From a virus, in IMG/VR virus record IMGVR_UViG_3300034782_000041, positions 74,407 through 138,406 of that record: a stretch of 64,000 bases of DNA, one strand, 5' to 3'. Both the position numbers and the translations under genes were made by a program. The notes under the pieces are model-generated. The model worked only from the letters and a program-made list of their open reading frames with translations. It had not been told where the DNA came from and searched no databases. Below are positions 4,455-61,727 of the stretch, piece by piece. Positions within the stretch are counted from its first letter, which is position 1. Every line of letters begins with the position of its first letter.

Positions 4455-6809
4455 TCAACAACGCGAGAAGCCGCACAGCGCGCACTTGGCGCAGCCCTCG
4501 GCGTAGTACAGCGCGACCTGGTGGCAATCTGGGCAGATGTCGCCGAAGGCAACGTGTTTGTGGCCGTTGCCGTTACCGTTGCCATTCCCATTCCCGTTGC
4601 CGTTTCCATGGCCATTTCCGTGCCCGTGCCCATTGCCGTGCCCGTTGCCGTGGCTATCCCCCTTAGGTGCCCCTGGAGGCTCTACGACGGCCTCTGCTGG
4701 CGAGGCCTGCGTAGACGCTCGGCGGCTTTCGAGCGCGTCAGCGAGCGAACGGAGGGCCTTGGCGACCCCATCTGGGAGTGACAGGACCCGTTCTTGCCCA
4801 AATCCCACCGAATCCCCCCCGCCGATGCCCGAGAGCTGGTCCGCGATGAGCTGGAGGCGCCGCTCGGGGCTGATCGGGCTGTCCAGCCGGAGCACCAGGG
4901 ATCCCAGCCGGGCAATGGCCTCACAGTCGGCGCTGACTGCTGTGCCAGCACGGCTGACAGCGAGCCAGGTTTCAAACGGCCGGTCGTTGATGTCCAACCC
5001 GACCTTGACGCTGAGCTTGCCTGTGGGCGTCTTGATCATCTCGCCGAGGAGATCATATGTACCCGTCGGGATGGGGTGCAGCTCGGGGCGCTTGCCGGTA
5101 CCAAGCGTCAGGGTTTGATTCGCACGGCACTGATCGCGATAGACCGTGATGCCCTTGCAACCTTCTTCCCAGGCGAGCTTGTAGGCGCGTTCTACGTCAG
5201 CAACGGTCGCGTCTTTGGGCATGTTGATCGTTTTGGACACCGCGCACTCGACGTGCTGCTGAAATGCGGCTTGCATCTGCACATGCGCAGCTGGATCGAT
5301 TTCGTTGGCGACCGCGAAGACACGTTGCCATCGTGTGGGCACGTCGGGATCGTCTCGAACGGTGCCGTTCTCTTTGACGCGTTCCATGAGCGCATCACTG
5401 TAGAAGCCTTCCCGCTTCGCGATCTCGACGAAGTCTGGGTTGACGTCTACCATCTCCATGTCGGCTTGCCTGCGCGTCTGGACGATGGCAAACAACGGCT
5501 CTATGCCGCTAGAACATCCCGCGATGATCGAGATGGATCCGGTTGGCGCAATCGTGGTCACCGTCCCGTTGCGACGGTGTTTGCGCCCCGCCGTGAAGTG
5601 TTTTGAACGCTCGAATGCTGGAAACGGTCCACGAAGCGCTGCTAGCTCCTCGCTGGCTTCGATTGCCTGCGTGTTGATGAACTTCATCACGTTGCCGGCG
5701 AGGTCGCGCGCTTGCTGTGACGCGTAGGGAACACCCATCTTGATCAGGAGGTCCGCCCAGCCCATGACGCCGAGGCCAACACGGCGATTTTCCCGTGTGC
5801 GTTCTGCCAACTGAGGAATCGGGTACTGGTTGACGTCGTGGATGTCATCGAGGAAGCGCACAGCGAGCTGCGTCGTAGCTTCGAGTCGCTTGAAGTCCAA
5901 TTCTCGATTTGCTACGTCGTAGAAGTTGACGAGATTGATCGATCCCAGATCGCAAGCGTCATACGGGTGAAGTGGCTGCTCGCCGCATGGATTTGGGGCT
6001 TCAATCGGATCGTCGGCCGTCGTCAACGGATCGAGTTCATTCACACGATCTAGGAAGAAGAGCCCTGGCTCACCTGTGGCATGTGCGTTGCGAACGACCC
6101 GATCGAAAACCATTCGAGCTGCTAGCTCGCTCACAACCTCATTCGTGCGTGGGTTGACCAGCGCGTACATTGCGTCTGCTGCCAACGCGTCCATGAAGGC
6201 GTTCGTGATCCCGACACTGATGTTGAAGTTCTGTAGCTCGCTCGGATCTTTCTTGCAGTCGATGAAGTCGAGAATATCCGGGTGGTCGCAACGCAAGACG
6301 CTTATGTTCGCCCCGCGCCGAACGCCGCTTTGCTTCACGCACTCCGTAACGTTGTTGTATGCCTTCATGAAGCTGATCGGACCACTCGCAAGTCCGGTAG
6401 TGGATCGCACGAAGTCGTCTTTGGGGCGCAGCCGCGAAAAACTGAACCCCGTCCCAGCGCCCTGTTGGTGGCTCAATGCCATGTCGCGCAGTGTTCCGAA
6501 GATGCTCGGCATCGAGTCCTCGATGGGCAACACGATGCAGGCGGACAGGAGCCCGGCGGACAGTCCCGCATTTACCAAGCAGGGCGTGTTTGGCATGAAA
6601 TCTCGGGCGGCCATCATGCGATAGAAGGAGGGCCACACCGTCTCCGGATCGACGCCGTGATTGCGTTCTGCTCGTGCGACATGCTTGGCTACTGCAACGA
6701 AGCGGTCGCGTGGCGTCTCGATGACTTCCCCTTTCTCGTTCCGCTTCAGATACCGTTTCGCTAGGACACTCTCCCCAATAGTGGTCAGATTCGGTTGCAG
6801 CAGTTCCAC
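4455..6809 (-). CDS. nrdJ: ribonucleoside-triphosphate/diphosphate reductase, class II (adenosylcobalamin-dependent), with C-terminal His/Asn/Gly-rich linker and Cys4 zinc ribbon
   Basis: 784-aa product with class II RNR hallmarks (NTPCLVNAG…, PNPCGEQPL, DACDLGSINL, TIAPTGSISIIAG); C-terminus HGNGHGNGHGHGNG(NG)n then CPDCHQV…CAKCALCG. Confidence 0.93.
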   Translation of the reverse strand: MELLQPNLTTIGESVLAKRYLKRNEKGEVIETPRDRFVAVAKHVARAERNHGVDPETVWPSFYRMMAARDFMPNTPCLVNAGLSAGLLSACIVLPIEDSMPSIFGTLRDMALSHQQGAGTGFSFSRLRPKDDFVRSTTGLASGPISFMKAYNNVTECVKQSGVRRGANISVLRCDHPDILDFIDCKKDPSELQNFNISVGITNAFMDALAADAMYALVNPRTNEVVSELAARMVFDRVVRNAHATGEPGLFFLDRVNELDPLTTADDPIEAPNPCGEQPLHPYDACDLGSINLVNFYDVANRELDFKRLEATTQLAVRFLDDIHDVNQYPIPQLAERTRENRRVGLGVMGWADLLIKMGVPYASQQARDLAGNVMKFINTQAIEASEELAALRGPFPAFERSKHFTAGRKHRRNGTVTTIAPTGSISIIAGCSSGIEPLFAIVQTRRQADMEMVDVNPDFVEIAKREGFYSDALMERVKENGTVRDDPDVPTRWQRVFAVANEIDPAAHVQMQAAFQQHVECAVSKTINMPKDATVADVERAYKLAWEEGCKGITVYRDQCRANQTLTLGTGKRPELHPIPTGTYDLLGEMIKTPTGKLSVKVGLDINDRPFETWLAVSRAGTAVSADCEAIARLGSLVLRLDSPISPERRLQLIADQLSGIGGGDSVGFGQERVLSLPDGVAKALRSLADALESRRASTQASPAEAVVEPPGAPKGDSHGNGHGNGHGHGNGHGNGNGNGNGNGNGNGHKHVAFGDICPDCHQVALYYAEGCAKCALCGFSRC

Positions 6810-14550: not shown

Positions 14551-14951
14551 GTCTTGATTGAATAGCCATCGAGCTAGCATTCCGGGGGGCCGGCCACGGA
14601 AAAACACCGCTGGCCCCGTTTTGTAGTCTCGATTGGGTAGCCATCGAGCTAGCATTCCGGGTCTGGGGCGCGAACGCCTTCGGGCTCGGCTCGATACGGT
14701 CTCGATTGAGTAGCCATCGAGCTAGCATTCCGGGGAGCACCCCGAGGAGCGAACTGGCTTCCGCTACGCGTCTCGATTGAGTAGCCATCGAGCTAGCATT
14801 TCGGGTGGCAGAAAGCTTTGGCCGCGGCAATTGCACGCGAGCTGTCTCGATTGAGTAGTCATCGAGCTGGCATTCCGGGGCGGCTGCGCCAGTGGTTTGA
14901 AACGCACACCCGACTGTCTCGATTGAGTAGCCATCGAGCTAGCATTCCGGG
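14551..14951 (-). CRISPR. CRISPR array, six 36-bp direct repeats (consensus plus-strand GTCTCGATTGAGTAGCCATCGAGCTAGCATTCCGGG) with five unique 35-39 bp spacers
   Basis: Repeats at 14551, 14626, 14699, 14770, 14844, 14916; spacers 39/37/35/38/36 bp; each repeat contains inverted repeat CTCGAT…ATCGAG (6-bp stem, 9-nt loop); variation among copies is confined to the loop. Confidence 0.8.
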
Positions 14952-16522
14952 GGCACCTCGTTTTTCTTGTGCCGTTTCGCGAACCTGGAGGTCGTTTTTC
15001 GAGCGGTAGGTTTTTTCCATTTGCCGGCTTGGTAGAGGGCCCACATGTTTCGGGTGCTTATGTCGTCGCAGTCTCGTTGCGTACCACACCCCTCGCAACG
15101 AAGCATGCGTTGTCCGTTCACGGGAGTGATTGTGCCACAATCGGGGCAACGCGCACTCGTGTGCTTCGCTTCTACGATCCGCATTCCATCGGCGCCAAAC
15201 ACTTCCCGTAGCACCTCCACTGTTTCTCCTGGTGCCGCATGTTGTCCTTGCCGTTGAGCCTTCTGAGGCAGCCCGTGTTCCTCCTTGATCTTCTTGTGCC
15301 CTGTATTCTTGACGATGACAGCCGCGTATTGACAGCGTAGCTCACGCACCCATTCACGCAGCGCTGCGCGACGTCCGGTTCGGCTACGCCGCCAGCAACC
15401 GCACTCATACCGCCAGAGATGCATTTCGCGTGCAACCCACGCGTCTTGATCCGCGGTGAGTACTCCTAGACTACGTAGTCTTCGTACAGCCTTTTGGCAG
15501 GATTTCGTCTTACCGACTACAGGCCAGCACGCCCGTACTTCGTTGAGGCGCTTGTCACGGTGTGAGTGGATCTTCTCCGCACGGTCAGCGCGTGCCGTCC
15601 AACTGACTGGCATGCGTAGCTCACTCACGTGACCGGCCGCATCACGCGCGTAGCCCAATCGCCAGGAGCCGTCAGGCATCTTGCGCCAGCTGACGTCTAC
15701 CGCAACGACGCCTTCCTCGGCCGCGTCCGTCCTTGGGTCAGCATCCTTGCAAGTGAACGCGACCGACCAAACCTGCTGATCGGCATTGTAACGCCGCCGC
15801 ACATGGACATGTGTGATTTGTCCAGACAGCTCGCGGTGCTTTTCTATGCGGATCGGGGTGCAGAAAATGGGTGTAGCCCCATTGCTGCCGATCCTAATTT
15901 CTACCGTGTGCCGTCCAAGTCCGTTACGTGTACGTCTTCCTGTCCGTGCGTCTGGCGCTTTGTGAGTCTGTACGTACCGATGAGGATCTCTTCCGGGTTG
16001 AATTTGGACGGCCGCGACGTCTCCTTTGCGCCACGACCGGAATTTCACCGGGCGGAGCAGAGACGTGTGTTGCCAGGCTGCCGAGAAGGCCTGTTCGATC
16101 ACGTTGTAGGTTCCCCAGTAGAGTCCTTTCGCCGCCCATGTAGTTCGTAATGGACGAACGTCGAGTAGCGGTATAGCACGGGTAGCTGCCCACACTGCAT
16201 TCCAGTGCGCGCGGCAAGCCGCACACTTACAGTTGTCGTGCTCTGCCGGGTGCGCCTCGCGGTGCTTTTCGCACTCAGCGCAGTCGCAGTCGTACTTCTC
16301 GTGGGGAGGCGACGTCTTCGCCCATGCATCTTGGCACTTCTCGCACTGACATCTACCTCGGTGCGGTGGTGGTGGCGGAGATTCGCCGCCCCATCCGATT
16401 TGGCGCCGCTTGTTCTCCGCTTCAACGAGCGCGTTGTAGTACTGACGGCCTAGCCTCATCTGCCTGAGCAAGTTCGGATCTTGGCTAGGGCGGGCTCCAT
16501 ACTTGTAAACGCGTGCTGGCAT
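14939..16522 (-). CDS. cas12: TnpB/Cas12-family RuvC nuclease-like protein, candidate single-effector of a type V CRISPR-Cas system
   Basis: N-terminus VYKYGARPSQDPNLLRQMRLGRQYYNAL matches the TnpB/Cas12 WED start; GVVAVDVSW (RuvC-I-like); GMRIVEAKHTSARCPDCG…RCEGCGTQRDCDDISTRNM (zinc finger plus RuvC-III RD motif); probable start 16522 with AAGGAG RBS; 3' end overlaps the first array repeat. Confidence 0.8.
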   Translation of the reverse strand: MPARVYKYGARPSQDPNLLRQMRLGRQYYNALVEAENKRRQIGWGGESPPPPPHRGRCQCEKCQDAWAKTSPPHEKYDCDCAECEKHREAHPAEHDNCKCAACRAHWNAVWAATRAIPLLDVRPLRTTWAAKGLYWGTYNVIEQAFSAAWQHTSLLRPVKFRSWRKGDVAAVQIQPGRDPHRYVQTHKAPDARTGRRTRNGLGRHTVEIRIGSNGATPIFCTPIRIEKHRELSGQITHVHVRRRYNADQQVWSVAFTCKDADPRTDAAEEGVVAVDVSWRKMPDGSWRLGYARDAAGHVSELRMPVSWTARADRAEKIHSHRDKRLNEVRACWPVVGKTKSCQKAVRRLRSLGVLTADQDAWVAREMHLWRYECGCWRRSRTGRRAALREWVRELRCQYAAVIVKNTGHKKIKEEHGLPQKAQRQGQHAAPGETVEVLREVFGADGMRIVEAKHTSARCPDCGTITPVNGQRMLRCEGCGTQRDCDDISTRNMWALYQAGKWKKPTARKTTSRFAKRHKKNEVPPEC

Positions 16523-16556
16523 ACATGCTCCTTTGCTTGGCTCCTCGGAGCCCCAT

Positions 16557-16886
16557 TCAACCAACGTTGCAAGCAGCTAGAGCTGCAATGATCTTCTCCG
16601 ACATGCCTTGTAGGCCTTTACCGTATTCGCGGATTCCACGCACCGTGAGTAGAATATCGCGGAGTTGATCCTGGTCATCGCTGACACGCTGAATGAGGTC
16701 AGCTACCAGGTCGAGAAGGCCAGCTTGCTCTTCTGGCGACAGCGGTTGCAGGATGCCCTCACGAAGCTGTGTGGCCACGATACGGGCCATCTCAGGGCGC
16801 ATTGTCGAGAGGGCTGCCGCAGCACCGCCAGGAACCGTGTATTCGTGTGCGGGATCATCTGTCATCAGCGTTTTCCTCCTCCTCAT
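16557..16886 (-). CDS. hypothetical protein
   Basis: 109-aa ORF directly upstream of the cas12-like gene; no Cas1/Cas2 features. Confidence 0.45.
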   Translation of the reverse strand: MRRRKTLMTDDPAHEYTVPGGAAAALSTMRPEMARIVATQLREGILQPLSPEEQAGLLDLVADLIQRVSDDQDQLRDILLTVRGIREYGKGLQGMSEKIIAALAACNVG

Positions 16887-16910: not shown

Positions 16911-17735
16911 TCAAGTCAGGTTGGACGTTTCCGACGCTGATTGAACGATCTCCACTGCGTTGGCCTCGCTCAGATCGAATTCGTCCTTGAGCTTCTTGAT
17001 CAAGCCGGCACGGAACAACGCAGTACGTTCGACGTTCGCCTCCCTGTACTTACCGATGACCTGCAACACAGGCGCCCAGTCTTGGATGAGACCGTCCAGC
17101 GCTTGCGTAACACGGTCAGCGGACGCGATTTTGCGCAGCTCGGCAACGTTGTCACAGACATCGTTGATCACGTCAGCGATTTGTTTTGGCGCGTTGGCGT
17201 CGAGTACGCTGTGGACGATGGCAGTACTGGCCAGCTTTCCTATGCTCGGTACCTCGGCGCTGCTCTGCGCAGCTCCTGCACTGTATATGTTGCGGATACG
17301 TTTGAGCCGATCAATACGGGCCGCGAGATCGCTGAGCCCTGTAGAGGCTGCATCTGCGGTACCAGCTTCAGCTTCAGCTTCAGCTTCAGCTTCAGCTTCA
17401 GCTTCAGCTTCAGCTTCATCTGTGTCATCCTCGTCCGTAATCTCACGAACCGCGAGCATCACGTCACCAAAACGAACCGTGTCGCCGACTTTGACGGCTG
17501 CTTTGTTGATCTGCTTCTCGTTGATGAACGTACCTTGCACGCTACCCAGATCGACTAGGTGGACAATGCCTCCAGGCTCGCACTCGAACACCGCGTGCAT
17601 CCGACTGACTGAAGGATGGTTGAGCTTCAACCCCGAGCGTTTCATTTTTCCAATCTTGATCACACTGCCGCGGCAGGTGTGCACCTCACCTTGCGTGCCG
17701 TCACTGTTGATCTCAGCCAATACGATTGCCCTCAT
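16911..17735 (-). CDS. FHA (forkhead-associated) domain protein with (EA)7 repeat
   Basis: N-terminal GSVIKIG…SRMHAVFE…LVDLGSVQGTFINEKQI…GDTVRFG fits the FHA fold; (GCTTCA)n encodes EAEAEAEAEAEAEA. Confidence 0.7.
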   Translation of the reverse strand: MRAIVLAEINSDGTQGEVHTCRGSVIKIGKMKRSGLKLNHPSVSRMHAVFECEPGGIVHLVDLGSVQGTFINEKQINKAAVKVGDTVRFGDVMLAVREITDEDDTDEAEAEAEAEAEAEAEAEAGTADAASTGLSDLAARIDRLKRIRNIYSAGAAQSSAEVPSIGKLASTAIVHSVLDANAPKQIADVINDVCDNVAELRKIASADRVTQALDGLIQDWAPVLQVIGKYREANVERTALFRAGLIKKLKDEFDLSEANAVEIVQSASETSNLT

Positions 17736-33546: not shown

Positions 33547-33804
33547 ATGGCGTCACACCACATCAACGTGCTTCTTGACGACGAGCTACACACGTACCTG
33601 GTACAGCATGCGCAGACCCGCGGCATATCCCTGTCTGCTGCGCTCCGCGATCTACTACGCCACGGTCTCGGCATCGTCGCGTCAGGCGAGGACGCAGGAT
33701 GGCGAGAGGGCTACACCGCGGCGTGGGCAGCGGTTCGCCGCGCTGCGCTGGACGCCGTTGAGCAAGTCTCACCCGTCTATCCTGACGATACATTTCACTC
33801 GTAA
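33547..33804 (+). CDS. ribbon-helix-helix (CopG/Arc-like) DNA-binding protein, apparently leaderless
   Basis: INVLLDDELHTYLVQHAQTRGISLSAALRDLL beta-strand plus two helices; ATG directly after a promoter-like TTGAAC…TAGCAT with no SD; paralogue at 62471. Confidence 0.6.
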   Translation: MASHHINVLLDDELHTYLVQHAQTRGISLSAALRDLLRHGLGIVASGEDAGWREGYTAAWAAVRRAALDAVEQVSPVYPDDTFHS

Positions 33805-34898
33805 TCAGCTCGACGCGGCGGCCAAGTTTTTGGCTGCGTGTCATTTGATGCGGCGGCGTTTGCTTCGCCATTCGATGGCTCGACAAGATCGCGAAGCACT
33901 TCGCCGGGTGCTTGTGCTGGCAGTTTGCTCGCTTTGTCGTAGCGCTCTGTTGTCGCCTTTGAGGCATGTAGCATCGCCGCCTGACGATCTTCGATTGAGA
34001 CGCCACGCTGACCTGTAATCGTCGCGAACGAACGCCGAATCGCATGAGGTGTTGCGCGTGTCAGGTCGAGCCCTGCGCGTTCCGCTGATCGCTTCACGGC
34101 GTTCCTGACTGTCGTGGGGCCAACGGCCACGTCGGCGCCTTCGCGTCGCGGGAATATTGGCCCTGCGTCGATACGATTGGCTTGGCACCATTCCGCCAGC
34201 TCGTGCGACAACCAAACTGGAAGTGGCACGATGGCATCCTTGCCACCTTTCGCGTGCACTTGCGCAGCGAAGCCACCAGGGGTGTCGAGGAGCGCATCAC
34301 GACGAAGGCGTGCGATCTCCGCTCGACGCCAACCCGTACCTGCTAGCGTGGCGCAGATAACCCAATCGCGACGTTCTACCCACGGCGCGGTTGACGGCGG
34401 CCGTATTAGGAGACGGCGCATTTCGTCTTCTGCGAGCCAGGGCGTCTTCGGCTCGTGATCCACTTTGATGTTTCGGACCTCGCGCGCGGGGTTTGCGTCT
34501 AGCACCCCAGGCACCTCCGAGAACGCAACTACCAGCGCGGCGTAGGTCGAACGGATCACGGCCAGTGCGCGTGAGCGCGTCGTCTTCGCCCTGCCAGCGT
34601 CCTGCATGCTCACGAGATAGCGCAGAACGTGCAGGGGCAGCGCGTGCAGTGGATGGACCCCTTCGGCGGAGAGCCAAGCCACCCAGCGGCGCCAGTCGTC
34701 ACGGTAGCCGCGTACGCTCTCTGGGGAGTCCAGGGTGCGCCGGAACGCCAGGAGTGCCTCCTCTAGGCGGTCTTGCAGATCGGGGCTCAGAGCAGCGTCT
34801 GAGGGCCTAATTTGCCAGGGTGGGCGCGGGATCAGGTCGGTTCCCTCGGACATGATCTGAGAGCTTGCCCGACAACCGGTATTATCGTCAACTGGCAA
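33795..34898 (-). CDS. int: tyrosine recombinase / phage integrase
   Basis: C-terminal catalytic motifs …RATPHAIRRSFAT… and …LHASKATTERYDK (R…HxxR…Y); N-terminal SAM-like core-binding region. Confidence 0.85.
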   Translation of the reverse strand: MPVDDNTGCRASSQIMSEGTDLIPRPPWQIRPSDAALSPDLQDRLEEALLAFRRTLDSPESVRGYRDDWRRWVAWLSAEGVHPLHALPLHVLRYLVSMQDAGRAKTTRSRALAVIRSTYAALVVAFSEVPGVLDANPAREVRNIKVDHEPKTPWLAEDEMRRLLIRPPSTAPWVERRDWVICATLAGTGWRRAEIARLRRDALLDTPGGFAAQVHAKGGKDAIVPLPVWLSHELAEWCQANRIDAGPIFPRREGADVAVGPTTVRNAVKRSAERAGLDLTRATPHAIRRSFATITGQRGVSIEDRQAAMLHASKATTERYDKASKLPAQAPGEVLRDLVEPSNGEANAAASNDTQPKTWPPRRADYE

Positions 34899-47867: not shown

Positions 47868-48572
47868 CTAATCTTTTCTCTGCGCTGAGGCGCGAGCCTT
47901 GAACATGCGCTCACGAACCTGGTCGAGGTTGGTACCGTCGTAGATAACCAGGTTCGGATGCTTGACGTCGGCGTTCCACGGTTGCTTGATCGCGACGACC
48001 AGTCCACGCGGTCGCACTTCGAGCCAGGGCAGGAAGTACGCCGGCCAGTCATCGACGAGCACCTTGCCGTAGACCAGTGACTTTTTCTGCCCGATGGTGA
48101 TGTGTAGATCGGGCGTGTGCTCTTGGCACCACTCTACCTTCTCCATCCACGCGGCCGCGTTGGTGGGCCCCTTGGTCAGCGCGTGGTTCTCGAAGCTCAG
48201 CTCGCGAGCGACTTCCAGGACGTCGAAGCCACGTTTGACAGGTTGAAGGTTGCGCCAGAACCCCGGCTGGGCCTTGATGAGCTTTCGCCGCGCGCTCATC
48301 CACGGTGTAGTAGCGTGCCACCAGGAATCCTTCAGCTCGCCGCTTCTGAGTACTGCAACCTCGGCCTCCGAGCACAAACGCTGCATCTGTTGACCCATCG
48401 CTGCATCGTAGTCCGCGAGCGTGCCGTCGAGATCGAACAAACAAACTGCATCATGCGGTGTTGGATCGGGCTTCCTGATGCTGTGCGGTGGATGATTGAG
48501 ATCCACTCTCCACTCTCTATCAGGCATCACTCTCTCTCTCCAATTCGCGGATGCGCTTCTTGGCCTTCTCAC
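47868..48572 (-). CDS. HAD-superfamily 5'(3')-deoxyribonucleotidase-like hydrolase
   Basis: CLFDLDGTLADYD (DxDGT motif I) and …GKVLVDDW (motif IV-like). Confidence 0.6.
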   Translation of the reverse strand: MRRPRSASANWRERVMPDREWRVDLNHPPHSIRKPDPTPHDAVCLFDLDGTLADYDAAMGQQMQRLCSEAEVAVLRSGELKDSWWHATTPWMSARRKLIKAQPGFWRNLQPVKRGFDVLEVARELSFENHALTKGPTNAAAWMEKVEWCQEHTPDLHITIGQKKSLVYGKVLVDDWPAYFLPWLEVRPRGLVVAIKQPWNADVKHPNLVIYDGTNLDQVRERMFKARASAQRKD

Positions 48573-51128: not shown

Positions 51129-51998
51129 TCAGTCATCCTTCGCGCAACGAAATCCGACGTCGTTGCTGGCTACGCCGGGCTCACGTGACGTGCGTGCCGC
51201 AGTCCGTAGATACGGAGAGGAGGAGGTCGCCGAGCCGCCGCGCACGACGCGCTCTGTACCGGTCACGGGGCCCTTCGGATCGGCATCCGGGGATTCTTCG
51301 TAGTAGGTCGCTGAGTACCAATCGTGGACCCACTCAGCGGCATTCCCCGCCATGTCGTACGCGCCGTACGGACTCACACCATCTGGGTACTGACCGACAG
51401 CGACAGCGTGATCTACCGGCGATTGACAGGAGGTGTAGTTGGCGAAGTCACAGCTGATTGCCCCTGAATCCCAAGGATAGCGTCGTGCGTCTGTTCCTCT
51501 CGCTGCCTTCTCCCACTCTGCTTCTGTGGGTAAACGTTTACCGCGCCATTCACAGTATGTCTGCGCTTGCGCCCACGTAACGCCCCGGACTGGATTCTCT
51601 GGCCCATCCGAGATCAACGGTATCGCACAAACACTGGCCGCTGCACACTCTCCATACGCGGCCTCGGTGACTTCAGTAGCATCGATCAGAAAATCCCCCA
51701 GTGTGACCTCGTGTATAGGCAACTCGTTCGGGTCCGCACACGGGTCGCTGGTGACGTTGCAGCCCATCCAGAAAACGCCTGCGGGAACAGCCACCATGGC
51801 AGTCAGGTCCGCAGCATCTGCCACGGTGCTGTCGATGTTGTCTGCATCTGCCGGCGAACTGTCCACGGCGGGAAGTGCGTCCGCTTCGATCGTTGCGTCG
51901 GCGTGTCGTGCATCCACAGGGTCAGCATCATAATTCGTTGATACTGTTCCACAGGCCGAGGTCGCTACCAATACCAATCCAAAGGTTCGATGACTCAT
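51129..51998 (-). CDS. secreted formylglycine-generating-enzyme (FGE/SUMF1)-domain protein
   Basis: Signal MSHRTFGLVLVATSACG; …VTWAQAQTYCEWRGKRLPTEAEWEKAARG…YDMAGNAAEWV…RVVRGGSA match the FGE-sulfatase fold signature. Confidence 0.65.
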   Translation of the reverse strand: MSHRTFGLVLVATSACGTVSTNYDADPVDARHADATIEADALPAVDSSPADADNIDSTVADAADLTAMVAVPAGVFWMGCNVTSDPCADPNELPIHEVTLGDFLIDATEVTEAAYGECAAASVCAIPLISDGPENPVRGVTWAQAQTYCEWRGKRLPTEAEWEKAARGTDARRYPWDSGAISCDFANYTSCQSPVDHAVAVGQYPDGVSPYGAYDMAGNAAEWVHDWYSATYYEESPDADPKGPVTGTERVVRGGSATSSSPYLRTAARTSREPGVASNDVGFRCAKDD

Positions 51999-52070
51999 CT
52001 TGTGCTCCTTTGTTCCCATAGCCCACAAGCAGTCACAGTGCCTGCCTGTGGGTCATACCACTCTACACGG

Positions 52071-52406
52071 TCAGTCTTCAGAAGGTAGAAACTTGTTCAG
52101 CTCGTCGGTGATCTCTTGCTTCGGCAGTAGGCCTACGAGATGCGCGACCACTTCCTTTTTGCGGAAGATCAACAACGTTGGGACTGCCTGGATTCTGTAG
52201 CGGTCAGTGATCTTCTCGCACTGATCCACATCGACAGCTGCGACCTGGGCTCGCCCTTCGTACTCGCGCGCCAGCTTCTCGATGATGGGTTTGATCTGCT
52301 TGCACGGACCACACCATCGCGCAGTGAAGTCCACGAGTGTGGGCAGCTCTGAATCGAGGAAGGCGTCGAACGTGTCGTCGGTCAGGTTGGTTATCTGTTT
52401 ACTCAT
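52071..52406 (-). CDS. trxA: thioredoxin
   Basis: 111 aa with WCGPCK active site and thioredoxin fold layout. Confidence 0.85.
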   Translation of the reverse strand: MSKQITNLTDDTFDAFLDSELPTLVDFTARWCGPCKQIKPIIEKLAREYEGRAQVAAVDVDQCEKITDRYRIQAVPTLLIFRKKEVVAHLVGLLPKQEITDELNKFLPSED

Positions 52407-53180: not shown

Positions 53181-53849
53181 CTATTCCTCGATGTTTTTCT
53201 CCTCGTGGCCTTCGAGCATCGCGCGGGCCTCGGGGTGGTTCAGTGCGTGAAGGCCGGTCTTGTTGATCGCGTTCTGGATGAACGCCTCGACCTCAGCTTT
53301 TGCGGCTGCAACCACCTTGTCGGTCGCCCGCTGAAACTGCGTAACCGCGAACGGCATGTCGGCCACGATGGCCTGGTGAAGGAGTTGGACCGCCTTCTCG
53401 ACCTCTTCGCAGGTCTTCTTCGAGCTACGTTTGAGGGCCTTCGCGACAACGTCAGTCAGCTTCTTGTAGCGGTCGCTGATCTCCTGGGTGTACTCCTCGA
53501 AACCGTTGTGGACGCGCTCGACCTCCGTCTCGTCATCGGGAGGATCCTCGATACGGTCCGTACCGCGCACGAACCGAATCGTGCACGGCACGCCGTTGCC
53601 GTAGTTCAGTGACGTGAGCATCTCAGCAAACTGAACTGCTGACATCTCGACCTCGATGTACTGGTCAGTCGAGTGGTACCACTCCTTGCTCAGATCGAAG
53701 TGGACCTCGCCCTCGCTGATCGTCAGCCGAACGGTCGCATGGTGGTCTTTGATCGAGCTGCCGAACAGCCGGCCACTACGCCCGTTACAGCGAGCGCACG
53801 AGATCATTCCGTAGGACGGATGCGCGCGGTTGTTGCTTGGTTTCTTCAT
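53181..53849 (-). CDS. hypothetical protein with N-terminal Cys pair
   Basis: 222-aa ORF. Confidence 0.5.
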   Translation of the reverse strand: MKKPSNNRAHPSYGMISCARCNGRSGRLFGSSIKDHHATVRLTISEGEVHFDLSKEWYHSTDQYIEVEMSAVQFAEMLTSLNYGNGVPCTIRFVRGTDRIEDPPDDETEVERVHNGFEEYTQEISDRYKKLTDVVAKALKRSSKKTCEEVEKAVQLLHQAIVADMPFAVTQFQRATDKVVAAAKAEVEAFIQNAINKTGLHALNHPEARAMLEGHEEKNIEE

Positions 53850-53851
53850 AC

Positions 53852-54841
53852 TTAGAACCTGGATTTATTCTTCGGCGCGATTGCAATCGCTATCGCGTAA
53901 GCTGCGTCCATCAGCTCATCTAAGGGTTCGAGCAAGAAATCCACGCCGCTGACAGCACGGTCGAGCCACAGCTTGCGTAAGCCTGTCGTTACGTGATCGA
54001 GACCAACCTCGCTAGTGCGAAGTAGCGGCTGGGGTACACGTCGAAGTAGCGGCTGCAACTCGTTCAGCACCCCCCATTGATGAAAATCCTCGGGGACGTT
54101 TCGCGCGCCGTTGAGTTTCATCCCAGTGAAGTCGGAGTACGCACCAACCGACAGGCGTGAAAGAAAGTCGAAGTCTACGTTGGAGAGGTCTGCATTCGCG
54201 AAGATTGCATTCCCCAGTACTGTGTGGTGCAGCTTGGCGCCACACAGTGAGGCGCCGGTGAAGTCTGCTTCCTTGATTACTGCATGACTCAGGTCTGCGT
54301 TGTCCAAGCACGCACCGGAGAAATCGACTTCGTTCAGCTCCGCGTAACGCAGATCCGCATACTCAAACGACGTGAAGGCGAAACGTGACTTATGCGTGAA
54401 TTTCGCCTTGCGTAGCTTGGCCTTGTCGAATATTGCACCGAACGCGTTGCAGTTAATGAATGTTGCACCACGTAGATCCGCGCTGCTGAAGTCGGTGTCA
54501 GGGAGATTCGTCGTACCCAACTCAGCGGCCTGCATTTTCGCGCTGACGAAAAGCGCGCTGTCGAGATTTGCGTTGTCTAGATTCACGGCACTAAGATTCG
54601 CACCTGCGAAGTCGCACGCGGCCAAGTTTGAGTGTCGTAAGTCGAGTCCCGCTAGCTCGAAGCCAGCGTAGTTACGTCGCTGGAAATTGGCTTGTTGTAG
54701 ATGAACCCGTGCCAAAGCTGCCCAAGACTGACGTGGTGTCAGGTTCTCGAACGTGAGTTTACGTCCATCGACAAGCACGACTTCGGGGTCGTTGGAGTCT
54801 ACGTCACCGGAGTCCGCAGCCAGCTTTGGTGAATCAGTCAT
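53852..54841 (-). CDS. pentapeptide-repeat protein
   Basis: ~35 consecutive A(D/N)LxX pentapeptides (…ANLSAVNLDNANLDSALF…ADLRGATF…ADLRYAELNEVDFSGACLDNADLSHAV…). Confidence 0.75.
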   Translation of the reverse strand: MTDSPKLAADSGDVDSNDPEVVLVDGRKLTFENLTPRQSWAALARVHLQQANFQRRNYAGFELAGLDLRHSNLAACDFAGANLSAVNLDNANLDSALFVSAKMQAAELGTTNLPDTDFSSADLRGATFINCNAFGAIFDKAKLRKAKFTHKSRFAFTSFEYADLRYAELNEVDFSGACLDNADLSHAVIKEADFTGASLCGAKLHHTVLGNAIFANADLSNVDFDFLSRLSVGAYSDFTGMKLNGARNVPEDFHQWGVLNELQPLLRRVPQPLLRTSEVGLDHVTTGLRKLWLDRAVSGVDFLLEPLDELMDAAYAIAIAIAPKNKSRF

Positions 54842-55206
54842 TCCTCGGTAGTACCATGCGAGACTGACAAAAGCGGTTCGGGGGCCAACTCATCGTAGGC
54901 TTGCATCGTTAGCTGCTGTGCTTTGGCCATGGCGACGATAGCCCATCCCGCGCATAACATCTCCTCATCACACAGCTGCTGATAGATCGTGGCGATGTTC
55001 GCGTTACTGGTATTCAACGTCTCCGCTTGCGCTACTTGAGCTGCTAGCTGCATACGCTTTTCGTTCGCAGTAGACCACTTCTGAAGTGCATCCAGCGCTT
55101 CTGCGTGTGCTACCCGTGCCTTCTCACGTGTATCATTCATGGGTGCCGCCAGTGAGAAGTCGCATCGCGTTGATGGCCAGCTCACGAATGCCCGCGTACC
55201 GCTCAC
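54838..55206 (-). CDS. hypothetical protein
   Basis: 122-aa ORF. Confidence 0.4.
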   Translation of the reverse strand: MSGTRAFVSWPSTRCDFSLAAPMNDTREKARVAHAEALDALQKWSTANEKRMQLAAQVAQAETLNTSNANIATIYQQLCDEEMLCAGWAIVAMAKAQQLTMQAYDELAPEPLLSVSHGTTEE

Positions 55207-59397: not shown

Positions 59398-60630
59398 TCA
59401 GATTTCTATCTCGATGACATCAGCGAACTCAGGAATTTCTTTTCTGCTCGCGTAACCGATCAAGGCGACGGTCAGCTTACGGCAGTTGCGCGGCCGTTCA
59501 GGCCACGTCTCACACGGCATACCGTCTGTCAGATGGATCGCGTAGTCGAACTTCTTGCTGGCGCTCTCGATGGCCGCGTACGCAGGCGTGTATAGCGTTC
59601 CGCCGCGACCGATCAGAGTCTTGGCGAGAGCAGCTCGTCGTGTGCCGGGACGGATCCAGTCGGCGAAGTGCACCTCCGCGTCGTGTGTGACCAGAAATAT
59701 GGCCACACCCGTCGCACGGCTGATTGCTTCCACCTCGCTGAGTGCTTGTTCGAGGTCTTCGTCAGAGACAGAACCGCTGGTGTCTACCGCCACAGCGACG
59801 AGTGCCTTGGACGTGATTCCACCTGGGAGAATGAAGTCGCCCGCGAACGACCGCCGGTTGCGTCGCTGCCAACTAACGTCGTCGTTGCCGCGTTCAGCGA
59901 TTGCACGTGCACATGCGTTGCGTAGCACCGCAGTCCACGCCACTTTGGATGGTGGAACGCGGAGCACGCGTGCAAGCAGATCTCCAGAGCAGTCGCCTGC
60001 CGAGCGCGCGTTCTGCTCAGCGCTGTGAGCAAGCTGCCGCCAGGTCCGTGCTGACTCAGCTGTGGAGGGAAACGCCGCGCCGTCTTCTGGTGCTTCACCC
60101 TCGGCGCCATCGTCATCACCATCGCCATCACCACCCTGAGGTGGAAGCACGCCACAACCACCGGTTGCTCCGGGCATCTTGCCCAGCGAGGCTTGACCGT
60201 CATCGCCTGGCTGTTCTTCCTCGACCTCGTAGAGTTCTTCTGTTGTGTACTCGTTATGCGCCGGGTCGGTGGGAAGTAACCCCATGGGCGGCATTTCCAG
60301 CCCTATTTGCACGAGACCGAAGTTGATTGCGCGATCCGCGGCACGATTCCAGCGGAACGGCTTGCGGTTCATTCGCCGCCCAAAGTGAAACAGCAGCAGA
60401 TGCATGATCTCGTGCGCCAGAACGAAGGTAAGCTGCTTGTCCGAGAGCTGATCGCAGAAACTCGGATTGAGGTACACGCATCCACGTACGTCAGCACAAG
60501 CAGTCTGGATGTGGATGGACACACGCAGGTAGATCTTCGCACCGGGTAGAGCAAAGAATGGGTGTCGCCAACCAAGGCCCAACAAAAGCCCTCGGGCACG
60601 CTGGATGAGCTGTCTGGTCGCTGATGTCAT
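59398..60630 (-). CDS. putative metallopeptidase (HExxH) plus VWA-like domain protein (DUF2201-type partner of MoxR ATPases)
   Basis: N-terminal …LTFVLAHEIMHLLLFHF…; acidic Gly/Asp linker; C-terminal LVAVAVDTSGSVSDEDL VWA/MIDAS-like. Confidence 0.7.
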   Translation of the reverse strand: MTSATRQLIQRARGLLLGLGWRHPFFALPGAKIYLRVSIHIQTACADVRGCVYLNPSFCDQLSDKQLTFVLAHEIMHLLLFHFGRRMNRKPFRWNRAADRAINFGLVQIGLEMPPMGLLPTDPAHNEYTTEELYEVEEEQPGDDGQASLGKMPGATGGCGVLPPQGGDGDGDDDGAEGEAPEDGAAFPSTAESARTWRQLAHSAEQNARSAGDCSGDLLARVLRVPPSKVAWTAVLRNACARAIAERGNDDVSWQRRNRRSFAGDFILPGGITSKALVAVAVDTSGSVSDEDLEQALSEVEAISRATGVAIFLVTHDAEVHFADWIRPGTRRAALAKTLIGRGGTLYTPAYAAIESASKKFDYAIHLTDGMPCETWPERPRNCRKLTVALIGYASRKEIPEFADVIEIEI

Positions 60631-61727
60631 GCTGCCCCACGCTGCACTCTTGCCAGCAGTTGGATTTGGGCTTTGCGCCCGACGGTGGCGAACTTAGAGG
60701 CCTGCGGCACCTTGTTCATTAGGAACCGTCCGCAGGCAGCTCCAATCTCTTTCCGCAGCCGGCCCGCGTAGGTCCACGCGGCCCAGACATCGGTCTGCGC
60801 GACTCGGGCCAGGAGACCCAGGGCAGCGATCTGCTGATCGAGCGATTCGGGCAGCCGTGCCTTGGTTGGGTTGGCCGCGATCTCATCGATGGATGGCAGG
60901 TGCAGACGGAGCTTGCGAATTGCCAGGTACGCGCCAGCAGCGGACGGTCCTACGGCACCTGTCAGGAGCGCGTAGCCAACGTCATCCTCTTTACCGCCAT
61001 GCGCTGCCAGGCAGGAGAGGCCGATCTCCCAGCCGCGAGGGGATGCCCACGGCTCGCCCTGATCAACGCTTGCACGCGGCGGATCATAAACGAGCAGATC
61101 AGTAGCGTGGGAAAGCGTCGCGGCGAAGTCAGCGAACTCCGCAACGCATGCGGCCTGGAAGGCGTCCTCGTCGAGCACTACGGGAGAAGCGTGAACCGCC
61201 TCACCGTTGAAGTAGGACTGCACTTCCGCGAATGAGGGCTGATAGCGAAGCAGCACGATCCGGTTGATGAATGCCGCCGACAGCTCGATGCCGCCCGGTG
61301 CCTGTTCCGGCGGGTTGCACGCGAGTACTACGGGGCTGCCCGGGTGCAACGGCGTGCCGCCTGCGTTGCGTTCCATCGCAACACGTAGCATCGGGCCCTC
61401 GACCGATTTCGGCATCGCGGTCGCCTCGTCGATGAATAAGACACCCGCAGCGTCCACGACGGCCCGAATCTCGGGAAACAGCTCGCGCAGCACCCGACCC
61501 GACTGTAGATCGCGGTATGGCAGCCCCGCGACGTCTGTCGGGTCCATGTTGGACGCGATCAGATCGTGGCAAGGCAACCCAATGGCGGCCGCAGCATCAC
61601 GCACGAGGGCCGTTTTGCCAACGCCTGGCGAACCTAGCAGCAGTGCGGTTCGCCTCGCGCGAAGGGCAGCGGCCACCGCGGCGGCTGCTTGTGTGTAGTT
61701 CAACACGGGAATGAGATACTTGGACAA
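60627..61727 (-). CDS. MoxR-like AAA+ ATPase
   Basis: LLLGSPGVGKT Walker A; VLFIDEA Walker B; TTG start 6 nt after a GGAGGA RBS that follows GCCCCTCGGGGC. Confidence 0.8.
   Translation of the reverse strand: MSKYLIPVLNYTQAAAAVAAALRARRTALLLGSPGVGKTALVRDAAAAIGLPCHDLIASNMDPTDVAGLPYRDLQSGRVLRELFPEIRAVVDAAGVLFIDEATAMPKSVEGPMLRVAMERNAGGTPLHPGSPVVLACNPPEQAPGGIELSAAFINRIVLLRYQPSFAEVQSYFNGEAVHASPVVLDEDAFQAACVAEFADFAATLSHATDLLVYDPPRASVDQGEPWASPRGWEIGLSCLAAHGGKEDDVGYALLTGAVGPSAAGAYLAIRKLRLHLPSIDEIAANPTKARLPESLDQQIAALGLLARVAQTDVWAAWTYAGRLRKEIGAACGRFLMNKVPQASKFATVGRKAQIQLLARVQRGAA

What the first reader, a model, noticed from the sequence alone, without database searches (positions are those of the whole stretch)
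53852..54841. 329-aa pentapeptide-repeat protein: candidate DNA mimic or anti-restriction factor
The protein is nearly all tandem A(D/N)LxX pentapeptides, which form a right-handed quadrilateral beta-helix that mimics B-DNA (as in Qnr and MfpA). On phages such proteins can inhibit restriction enzymes, topoisomerases or other DNA-binding defences. It lies among accessory genes near thioredoxin.
Basis: partly seen in the sequence, partly recalled or inferred. Interest (0 to 1): 0.55.

Follow-up and report, generated by a model that had tools for sequence, protein, structure and literature searches.

The report
Phage pentapeptide-repeat protein, function unproven
The gene encodes a real pentapeptide-repeat beta-helix protein with a unique helical tail, carried by a large uncultured phage-like element. 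Nothing in the sequence shows that it mimics DNA or blocks restriction enzymes, so it is an ordinary member of a common fold whose target is unknown.

Summary
The ORF is real: window 53852-54841, minus strand, 329 aa. It passes Pfam Pentapeptide (E 3e-29). AlphaFold2 predicts a ten-coil right-handed quadrilateral beta-helix over residues ~45-245 (pLDDT 93-98), and this matches every solved pentapeptide-repeat protein.

Only 63% of the protein is repeats. There is also an acidic N-terminal tail, a conserved N-cap, and an ~80-residue helical C-terminal domain. The C-terminal domain is the best-conserved part. It has no fold match and only three relatives among 1.84 billion representative proteins.

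The protein fails every curated Qnr, MfpA, HetL and PipB model by a wide margin and has no Qnr-type loops. Its net charge (-3 per 100 aa) is typical of any pentapeptide-repeat protein.

It sits in a tightly packed one-strand gene array of a novel phage-like element of at least 150 kb. Its start overlaps the stop of an orphan 100-aa gene. Between two related elements, these two genes are the most diverged of the syntenic block (53% and 49%, against 62-90% for the neighbours).

Best reading: a cytoplasmic, non-enzymatic binding protein acting on a host factor, possibly as an anti-defence or DNA-shape mimic. The DNA-mimic and anti-restriction claim is plausible but has no specific support. Interest is low.

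The parts
53852..54841 (-). Complete ORF of the 329-aa pentapeptide-repeat protein (stop TAA at 53852-53854, ATG at 54839-54841)
54716..54841 (-). Residues 1-42. An acidic, low-confidence N-terminal tail (res 1-20, net charge about -4) is followed by a conserved N-cap ('DGRKLTFE..W..LAR', two short strands and helix 36-44).
   Evidence: pLDDT 44-79 and DSSP; charge; 67% identity to P0002 over res 21-47; alignment
54098..54715 (-). Residues 43-248. [quoted passage not shown]
   Evidence: Pfam; register; AF2 pLDDT 93-98; Foldseek PDB matches
53855..54097 (-). Residues 249-329. This is an orphan helical C-terminal domain (helices 251-267, 272-275, 281-298, 307-321) with invariant L.KLW.D...SG.D...EP...DAA.A.A.AI and a terminal SR(F/Y). 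I infer that it is a dimerisation or partner-docking module.
   Evidence: alignments; only 3 hits in 1.84e9 representatives; profile search; AF2; no PDB fold match (E >= 6)
54838..55140 (-). Upstream orphan 100-aa gene. Its TGA stop overlaps the ATG of the pentapeptide-repeat gene (ATGA), so the two are probably translationally coupled. The overlap is conserved in the related locus L007.
   Evidence: sequence; gene calls; 49% identity to the L007 ortholog; no other homolog
53181..53849 (-). Downstream 222-aa gene, which starts 2 nt after the pentapeptide-repeat gene's stop codon. It belongs to phrog_6452 (function unknown), a family found in 98 mostly large phages, and is listed as context only.

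Best explanation
The gene encodes a soluble cytoplasmic protein with no enzymatic domain. A ten-coil pentapeptide-repeat beta-helix, about 50 A long and roughly as wide as duplex DNA, serves as a rigid binding surface. A family-specific helical C-terminal domain probably mediates self-association or docks a partner.

The gene is expressed from a long co-directional array of non-structural genes in a large phage-like element, and is probably translationally coupled to a small orphan protein upstream.

Most likely it binds and neutralises or redirects a host protein during infection, that is, it acts in host takeover or anti-defence by stoichiometric binding rather than catalysis. A DNA-shape-mimic mode, occupying the DNA-binding groove of a topoisomerase, nuclease or defence sensor, is one sub-case.

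Shown: the ORF, the repeats, the predicted fold, the domain layout, the rarity, the synteny and the faster divergence. Inferred: the cytoplasmic location, binding as the mode of action, the host target, and dimerisation through the C-terminal domain.
For: Fold:
- AF2 model has pLDDT 93-98 across the helix and pTM 0.76.
- Foldseek hits to all solved pentapeptide-repeat proteins at E 1e-12 to 1e-6.

No catalytic or other domain:
- Pfam, NCBIfam, PHROGs and PADLOC give only repeat matches.

Cytoplasmic:
- No hydrophobic segment (maximum Kyte-Doolittle 19-residue mean 1.19) and an acidic N-terminus.

Differentiated rather than low-complexity repeats:
- Only 19 of 41 pentads carry a D/N at i-1.
- One face is preferentially conserved. 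Face-3 outward residues are 21/30 identical to the ortholog P0002, against 34/93 on the other faces (Fisher p = 0.0016).

C-terminal domain:
- The last helices are 72% identical to P0002, against 47-56% in the coils, with 23 invariant positions across four family members.

Host-interface signature:
- In the syntenic block shared with L007, the pentapeptide-repeat protein (53%) and its coupled 100-aa partner (49%) are the two most diverged genes. The nine other shared genes are 62-90% identical, median 73%.

Operon packing:
- ATGA overlap upstream and a 2-nt gap downstream.

Precedent:
- Vibrio phage 24 gp60, a pentapeptide-repeat protein, counteracts the RexAB-like Sucellos system. Deleting it raises resistance and escaper phages carry mutations in it (bioRxiv 10.1101/2024.07.02.601686).
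- Qnr, MfpA, AlbG and McbG show that the fold can act by binding a DNA enzyme (PMC10886550, PMC8145042).
Against: - There is no direct functional evidence of any kind, and no target is identified.
- The family has only four known sequences, one of them a fragment, so conservation statistics are thin. The face-3 signal is not seen with the distant member P0122 (6/30), where the repeat alignment may be out of register.
- Faster divergence could simply reflect relaxed constraint on a repeat protein.
- The C-terminal domain model has only moderate confidence (pLDDT 64-75 in the full model, 67 alone).
- Dimerisation could not be modelled.
- No virion gene was found, so the phage identity of the element rests on indirect evidence.
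Confidence: 0.55

Rival explanations
1. It is a Qnr/MfpA-like topoisomerase-interacting protein. A dimeric beta-helix rod would mimic a DNA T-segment, bind host (or phage) gyrase or topoisomerase IV, and either protect it from poisons (toxins such as CcdB/ParE-type, microcin- or albicidin-like compounds) or modulate supercoiling for phage replication.
For: - The only mechanistically solved bacterial pentapeptide-repeat proteins work this way (PMC10886550; PMC8145042).
- The model superposes on MfpA and QnrB1, with TM up to 0.74 normalised to the target.
- The coil number is similar (about 10, against 8-9).
- There is a helix directly after the last coil, as in the Qnr/MfpA dimerisation cap.
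- Charge density (-1.9 to -3.0 per 100 aa) is similar to MfpA (-2.7) and QnrB1 (-2.8) (comparator sequences verified).
- The N-terminal tail is acidic.
- Other phage pentapeptide-repeat proteins are annotated this way by homology.
Against: - It fails every curated Qnr/MfpA model by a very large margin: 25-45 bits against cut-offs of 240-500.
- It is more similar to generic cyanobacterial and designed pentapeptide-repeat proteins than to MfpA or Qnr.
- It has no Qnr loops A or B; there is only a one-residue bulge.
- The C-terminus is an ~80-residue multi-helix domain rather than the 11-12-residue helix plus strand of the known dimers. A head-to-head dimer would therefore not form a continuous DNA-like rod.
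- The charge is no different from the pentapeptide-repeat background (median -1.4, IQR -2.9 to 0).
- No topoisomerase or poison gene was seen nearby.
Confidence: 0.17
2. It is an anti-restriction DNA mimic in the manner of Ocr or ArdA. The protein would occupy the DNA-binding groove of type I/II restriction-modification enzymes, or of BREX, and block cleavage of incoming phage DNA.
For: - It has the rod-shaped fold with roughly the diameter of DNA.
- It lies among non-structural accessory genes.
- It diverges faster than its neighbours, as counter-defence genes often do.
- There is a general precedent for a phage pentapeptide-repeat protein acting in anti-defence.
Against: - Net charge is only -10 over 329 aa (-3 per 100 aa). 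From my own knowledge, dedicated anti-restriction mimics such as Ocr and ArdA are several-fold more acidic and display regular carboxylate arrays. This was not computed here.
- The pentapeptide-repeat 'mimics' McbG and QnrB did not inhibit BREX, and the same paper reports EcoKI inhibition only for ArdA and ArdB (PMC7261183).
- A literature search for pentapeptide repeat plus antirestriction found no experimental case in the held library.
- The one documented phage case targets a RexAB-like abortive-infection system, not restriction-modification.
Confidence: 0.08
3. It has a non-defence scaffold or regulatory role. The beta-helix would be an adaptor that binds another phage protein, for example the coupled 100-aa product or the neighbouring conserved proteins, in replication, assembly or regulation, with no host target.
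For: - Its start overlaps the stop of the upstream orphan gene, and that pairing is conserved in L007.
- The known pentapeptide-repeat proteins HetL, PipB2 and NleL/SopA are protein-protein adaptors (families listed).
- The C-terminal domain and one helix face are conserved, which suggests a fixed partner.
Against: - A fixed intra-phage partner would predict conservation similar to the neighbours, yet this pair is the most diverged of the block.
- The distant family member P0122 does not have the same downstream neighbours. Its upstream partner could not be checked because that contig is cut there.
Confidence: 0.2

Closest known systems
MfpA / Qnr / AlbG / McbG (topoisomerase-protecting pentapeptide-repeat proteins)
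   Same: - Right-handed quadrilateral beta-helix of about 8-10 coils.
- Cytoplasmic and mildly acidic.
- A helix follows the last coil.
- Carried on a mobile element, as Qnr and McbG are.
- Structural matches at E 1e-8 to 1e-6.
   Different: - Sequence scores lie far below all curated family cut-offs.
- No loops A or B.
- Residues 1-42 form an N-terminal tail and cap.
- The C-terminus is an ~80-residue orphan multi-helix domain rather than a single 11-12-residue dimerisation helix.
- No associated poison, immunity or Mfp conservon genes nearby.
Vibrio phage 24 gp60 (pentapeptide-repeat protein counteracting the RexAB-like Sucellos system; bioRxiv 10.1101/2024.07.02.601686)
   Same: A phage-encoded pentapeptide-repeat protein in a non-structural region. 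It is the only experimentally supported role for a phage pentapeptide-repeat protein that I found, and that role is anti-defence.
   Different: I could not obtain the sequence, so no homology beyond the repeat fold can be claimed. The host and the defence system are different, and that mechanism is also unknown.
Generic uncharacterised phage pentapeptide-repeat proteins (for example Caulobacter phage RW gp016, Rheinheimera 'Barba' phages, Listeria P100-like CKA15_017, Staphylococcus phage Twort ORF044; PHROGs 15350, 923, 31265)
   Same: - The same fold and the same placement among hypothetical early or accessory genes.
- 173 phage records carry a match.
   Different: - Similarity is confined to the repeats. 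RW gp016 is a near-perfect low-complexity ADLSG repeat array that aligns in many registers.
- None shares the N-cap or the C-terminal domain: no phage record covers 80% or more of the query.
HetL / cyanobacterial Rfr proteins and designed 'beta1' solenoids
   Same: These are the best sequence and structure matches to the repeat region: NCBIfam HetL 94 bits; PDB 4yei, 4yc5 and 3du1 at E 1e-21 to 1e-18.
   Different: The HetL model cut-off is 260 bits, so this is not an ortholog. Those proteins lack the C-terminal domain, and they act in heterocyst regulation or are synthetic, so they say nothing about function here.

Membership tests
Pentapeptide-repeat protein superfamily (Pfam PF00805 / clan Pentapeptide) | At least eight contiguous A(D/N)LXX-type pentapeptides that score above the Pfam gathering threshold | tested here: met
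   PF00805 scores 100.6 bits against a cut-off of 20.2. PF13599 scores 74.3 against 38. There are 41 contiguous pentads.
Pentapeptide-repeat protein superfamily (Pfam PF00805 / clan Pentapeptide) | [quoted passage not shown] | tested here: met
   This is a prediction only. AF2 gives pLDDT 93-98 over residues 45-245, with a 20-residue strand periodicity (21 across the bulge). Foldseek probability is 1.00 to all solved pentapeptide-repeat proteins.
Qnr family (NCBIfam NF033086 and allele-group models) | Sequence score above the curated family cut-off | tested here: not met
   The Qnr model scores 42.2 bits against a cut-off of 240. QnrA, B, C, D, E, S and VC score 27-45 bits against cut-offs of 425-500.
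Qnr family (NCBIfam NF033086 and allele-group models) | Loops A (about 8 aa) and B (about 12 aa) projecting from the helix; loop B is required for gyrase protection | tested here: not met
   The pentad register is uninterrupted apart from one extra residue near R153. The loop definitions come from PMC8145042.
MfpA (NCBIfam NF000349) | Sequence score above the curated cut-off | tested here: not met
   42.5 bits against a cut-off of 360.
MfpA/Qnr/AlbG functional class (DNA T-segment mimics) | Head-to-head homodimer through a short C-terminal strand-helix-strand, giving a continuous rod of about 100 A | not testable with these tools
   Only monomer prediction was available. The C-terminus here is an ~80-residue multi-helix domain, which differs from the known dimerisation module.
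MfpA/Qnr/AlbG functional class (DNA T-segment mimics) | DNA-like electronegative surface | tested here: inconclusive
   Net charge is -1.9 per 100 aa for the repeat domain and -3.0 for the whole protein, against -2.7 for MfpA and -2.8 for QnrB1. The background of 118 unrelated pentapeptide-repeat hits has median -1.4 and IQR -2.9 to 0. By face, the net outward charges are +2, -3, -4 and -4. This measure does not discriminate.
MfpA/Qnr/AlbG functional class (DNA T-segment mimics) | Binds the gyrase GyrB ATPase domain and protects against or relieves topoisomerase poisons | not testable with these tools
   This requires biochemistry or MIC assays.
Ocr/ArdA-type anti-restriction DNA mimics | Very high density of surface carboxylates arranged like DNA phosphates, and inhibition of type I R-M | tested here: not met
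   Only the composition was tested: 42 acidic against 32 basic residues in 329 aa. There is no Pfam, PHROG or PADLOC similarity to Ocr, ArdA or Arn families. The inhibition phenotype cannot be tested here.
HetL (NCBIfam NF047416) | Sequence score above the curated cut-off | tested here: not met
   94.3 bits against a cut-off of 260.
PipB/PipB2, SopA/NleL type III effectors | Score above the cut-off, plus the effector-specific N- and C-terminal domains (secretion signal, HECT domain) | tested here: not met
   24-56 bits against cut-offs of 274-500. The matches are confined to the repeats.

The most novel reading that the evidence does not exclude
This would be a new class of phage counter-defence protein. 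The pentapeptide-repeat beta-helix would act as a duplex-DNA decoy for a host DNA-sensing immune protein or nuclease. The orphan C-terminal helical domain, with the co-translated 100-aa partner, would supply oligomerisation or a second activity. That would make pentapeptide-repeat proteins a general phage solution for DNA mimicry, distinct from Ocr, ArdA and Arn.
Probability: 0.2. Interest if true: 0.55.

Novelty: new member of a known kind. Interest (0 to 1): 0.22.

Why it matters
Pentapeptide-repeat proteins are annotated in many phage genomes: 173 phage records match this one. Almost none has a tested function. The only experimental hint I found is an anti-defence role for one Vibrio phage protein.

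If this protein were shown to bind a host DNA enzyme or immune sensor, it would add a data point towards a general role for the fold in phage-host conflict. It would also assign a function to an orphan C-terminal domain.

As it stands, it is a routine annotation ("pentapeptide repeat-containing protein") with an unusual tail. It opens no long-standing question and is not surprising to a specialist.

Tried and rejected
1. **More family members.** I looked for more members to strengthen the conservation analysis. An exhaustive phmmer search with the C-terminal domain gave three hits. A profile search gave one. Pattern scans of IMG/VR, of GTDB species genomes and of JGI metagenomes gave none confirmed. 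The family stays at four sequences.
2. **Fold of the C-terminal domain.** A separate AF2 model reached only pLDDT 67, and Foldseek against PDB gave nothing better than E = 6. No assignment was possible.
3. **Conserved gene neighbourhood with other phages.** The downstream phrog_6452 gene occurs in 98 phage records, but in Mesorhizobium phage Cp1R7A-A1 it is not next to a pentapeptide-repeat gene. The Caulobacter phage RW pentapeptide-repeat gene sits among unrelated hypothetical genes, and its similarity is repeat-only.
4. **Defence or anti-defence models.** PADLOC gave nothing for this protein or its neighbours. A weak NCBIfam HalA match (17.6 bits against a cut-off of 250) was dismissed.
5. 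**Charge as a test of DNA mimicry.** It is not discriminating.
6. **Apparent strain variation in neighbouring gene calls between contigs.** I rejected this. All contigs are 99.99-100% identical to the window, so the differences come from the gene callers.
7. **Promoter and terminator scan.** Counts were no higher than in shuffled sequence, so it was uninformative.
8. **tRNA and Rfam scans of the window.** No hits.
9. **The upstream 100-aa partner.** It has no homolog other than itself and the L007 ortholog.
10. **Megablast of 19 kb against known phages.** No match.

Full report
**1. The observation**

The ORF listed in the finding exists at exactly 53852-54841, but on the minus strand. The plus-strand reading is interrupted by many stops. 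It encodes 329 aa.

The same 329-aa product was called independently on nine metagenome contigs from JGI samples 3300034988, 3300035146 and 3300035136 and several SRA runs. These contigs are 99.99-100% identical to the window.

The ATG overlaps the TGA of the upstream gene (GAGGAATGA). The next gene starts 2 nt after the TAA stop codon.

The pentapeptide signal is unambiguous:
- Pfam PF00805 gives E 3.1e-29, PF13599 8e-21 and PF13576 4e-9.
- In register there are 41 pentads from residue 43 to 248, broken only by one extra residue near R153.
- Of the 41, 36 have a hydrophobic centre, 33 a small i-2 residue and 19 a D/N at i-1.

The phrase "nearly all" is an overstatement. The repeats cover 63% of the protein.

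**2. Anatomy**

AlphaFold2 was run on a 59-sequence alignment and gave mean pLDDT 83.9 and pTM 0.76. The model has four parts:
- A disordered acidic tail, residues 1-20.
- A beta-helix with strict 20-residue periodicity and pLDDT 93-98, spanning residues ~45-245 (about ten coils).
- A helical C-terminal region, with helices 251-267, 272-275, 281-298 and 307-321 at pLDDT 64-75.

Foldseek against the PDB returns every solved pentapeptide-repeat protein with probability 1.00. These include the designed beta1 solenoids, HetL, Np275/276, MfpA, QnrB1, AlbG, EfsQnr, AhQnr, the Clostridium PENT protein, Rfr23/32 and NleL.

There is no signal peptide or membrane segment: the maximum 19-residue hydropathy is 1.19. 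A cytoplasmic location is inferred from this.

**3. The non-repeat parts are what define the family**

Full-length searching of 5.8 billion clusters found one true full-length ortholog, P0002 (53% identity, 325 aa). The hundreds of other hits align only to the repeats, covering 45-75% of the query.

An exhaustive phmmer search of 1.84 billion representatives with residues 240-329 found only three proteins:
- a truncated copy of the query itself;
- a 90-aa fragment, P0121 (56% identity);
- P0122 (327 aa, same architecture, 33% identity).

A profile search added nothing. Pattern scans of IMG/VR, of 185,579 species genomes and of JGI metagenomes gave no confirmed relative.

In the four-way alignment, all 23 invariant columns fall in residues 243-328, where the fragment P0121 also aligns. 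They form L.KLW.D...SG.D...EP...DAA.A.A.AI...SR.

Identity to P0002 varies by region:

| Region | Identity to P0002 |
|---|---|
| Last helices | 72% |
| N-cap | 67% |
| Coils | 47-56% |
| N-terminal tail | 25% |

The isolated C-terminal domain modelled at pLDDT 67 and has no structural neighbour in the PDB (best E = 6).

**4. Genomic context**

Most predicted genes in the 64-kb window lie on the minus strand and most are orphans. The recognisable ones are:
- a class II ribonucleotide reductase (4455-6809);
- a TnpB/Cas12f-like protein (14939-16564);
- an FHA protein (16911-17735);
- a tyrosine integrase (33795-34898);
- two NT5C-like nucleotidases;
- an FGE-sulfatase-domain protein (51129-52028);
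- thioredoxin (52071-52406);
- a MoxR-like AAA ATPase with a DUF2201 metallopeptidase/VWA protein (59398-61727).

Just outside the window lie a DUF5131/phrog_2045 protein, glycosyl- and sulfotransferases and a DNA-polymerase exonuclease subunit.

The gene immediately downstream of the pentapeptide-repeat gene belongs to phrog_6452 (E 9e-48). Its homologs occur in 98 phage records. The best matches are 130-350-kb phages, including alphaproteobacterial ones (Mesorhizobium, Erythrobacter, Sphingobium, Brevundimonas).

The longest contig carrying the upstream partner gene is at least 150 kb. Megablast against 50,697 phage genomes finds nothing.

I conclude that this is very probably a novel large tailed phage. 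No virion gene was seen, so this remains an inference.

**5. Comparative signal**

The related contig L007, which carries P0002, is syntenic from the AAA/DUF2201 pair to thioredoxin and NT5C. Pairwise protein identities across the block are:

| Genes | Identity |
|---|---|
| Nine neighbours | 62-90% (median 73%) |
| Pentapeptide-repeat protein | 53% |
| Its overlapping 100-aa upstream partner | 49% |

The ATGA-type overlap is conserved in L007 (8408-8713 and 8710-9687).

Within the helix, outward-facing residues of one face (face 3; small and mostly uncharged in coils 5-9) are 70% identical to P0002. The other faces are 23-47% identical (Fisher p = 0.0016). The pattern is not seen with the distant P0122, so I treat it as weak.

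Faster divergence of a coupled gene pair inside a conserved block fits a protein at the phage-host interface, but it does not prove one.

**6. Testing the DNA-mimic and anti-restriction interpretation**

*Membership.* All curated Qnr, MfpA, HetL, PipB/PipB2 and SopA models are missed by very large margins. For example, Qnr scores 42 bits against a cut-off of 240, and MfpA 42.5 against 360. The best sequence and structure matches are generic cyanobacterial or designed repeats, not the topoisomerase group.

*Loops.* There are none. The Qnr family needs loop B, although MfpA has none.

*Dimer module.* The known gyrase-binding proteins use a strand-helix-strand of about 12-20 residues to form a continuous head-to-head rod. 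Here the C-terminus is a larger, unrelated helical domain. I could not model oligomers.

*Charge.* I verified my MfpA and QnrB1 sequences against PDB entries 2bm4 and 2xtw and compared charge densities:

| Protein | Net charge per 100 aa |
|---|---|
| This protein, whole | -3.0 |
| This protein, repeat domain | -1.9 |
| MfpA | -2.7 |
| QnrB1 | -2.8 |
| 118 unrelated pentapeptide-repeat hits | median -1.4 (IQR -2.9 to 0) |

The measure is compatible with mimicry but does not discriminate. It is far from the extreme acidity that, to my knowledge, characterises Ocr and ArdA.

*Literature.* McbG and QnrB did not inhibit BREX, and that paper reports EcoKI inhibition only for ArdA and ArdB (PMC7261183). 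Searches for pentapeptide repeat with antirestriction, DNA mimic or phage found no experimentally characterised phage pentapeptide-repeat DNA mimic. Phage pentapeptide-repeat proteins are usually mentioned only as homology annotations.

One relevant precedent does exist. Vibrio phage 24 gene 24_60 encodes a pentapeptide-repeat protein. Escape mutants against the RexAB-like Sucellos system map to it, and deleting it greatly increases Sucellos protection (bioRxiv 10.1101/2024.07.02.601686). An anti-defence role is therefore plausible for the fold, but not specifically anti-restriction.

**7. Verdict**

The object is a genuine pentapeptide-repeat beta-helix protein and a new, very rare member of a very common superfamily. 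It is distinguished by a conserved N-cap and an orphan C-terminal helical domain.

My best explanation (confidence 0.55) is a cytoplasmic, non-catalytic binding protein that acts on a host factor during infection. The C-terminal domain would serve self-association or partner docking, possibly together with the coupled 100-aa protein.

My subjective confidences for the narrower readings are:
- gyrase-type T-segment mimic, 0.17;
- Ocr/ArdA-like anti-restriction, 0.08;
- purely intra-phage adaptor, 0.20.

These are not mutually exclusive. The first two are sub-cases of the best explanation, which is why the four numbers add up to 1.00 by coincidence rather than as a partition.

Nothing here would surprise a specialist, and no mechanism is demonstrated, so interest is low (0.22).

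Noticed in passing
window 14939-16564 (-): A 541-aa ORF matches the Cas12f1-like TNB domain (PF07282, 26.5 bits against a cut-off of 26.3) and transposase PHROGs 506 and 12300. It looks like a TnpB/Cas12f-like RNA-guided nuclease inside the phage-like element. No guide RNA was searched for specifically, and Rfam found nothing in the window.
   Followed up: partly
window 51129-52028 (-): A 299-aa protein has a strong FGE-sulfatase (formylglycine-generating-enzyme-like) domain (E 9e-51). Its hydrophobic, lipoprotein-like N-terminus (…FGLVLVATSACGT…) is unusual cargo for a phage. A sulfotransferase (PF13469) and two glycosyltransferases lie just beyond the right end of the window (L009 6508-7338, 2365-3024, 10264-10941).
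   Followed up: no
window 53181-53849 (-): The 222-aa gene directly downstream of the pentapeptide-repeat gene belongs to phrog_6452 (E 9e-48, unknown function). It is the most conserved gene of the syntenic block (90% identity to L007). Its homologs occur in 98 phage records, mostly 130-350-kb phages of Proteobacteria and Microbacterium. It is a widespread large-phage core protein of unknown role.
   Followed up: partly
window 59398-61727 (-): A MoxR-like AAA+ ATPase (366 aa) is paired with a DUF2201_N/DUF2201 putative metallopeptidase plus VWA protein (410 aa). The two overlap by 4 nt and are 75% and 71% identical in the related locus L007. This conserved two-gene module of unknown function lies upstream in the same gene array.
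   Followed up: no
window 33795-34898 (-): A tyrosine integrase (phrog_216 and phrog_1, E 1e-27) is present in an element of at least 150 kb. However, no relative of the pentapeptide-repeat protein was found in 185,579 species genomes, so the lifestyle (temperate or not) is unresolved.
   Followed up: no
window 4455-6809 (-): A 784-aa ribonucleotide reductase has its best phage match in the gene annotated as vitamin B12-dependent nrdZ of Microcystis phage MaAM05 (45% identity). Together with thioredoxin (52071-52406) and two NT5C-like deoxynucleotidases (47868-48572 and the 212-aa gene seen in L001), it forms a dispersed nucleotide-metabolism set.
   Followed up: partly
window 16911-17735 (-): A 274-aa protein with an N-terminal FHA (phosphothreonine-binding) domain (E 3.5e-15) lies within the array of orphan genes.
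   Followed up: no
L009 3097-6195 (+), about 4-7 kb beyond the right end of the window: A 1032-aa ORF has no Pfam or PHROG match at all. It is the largest gene seen in the element and is completely uncharacterised.
   Followed up: partly
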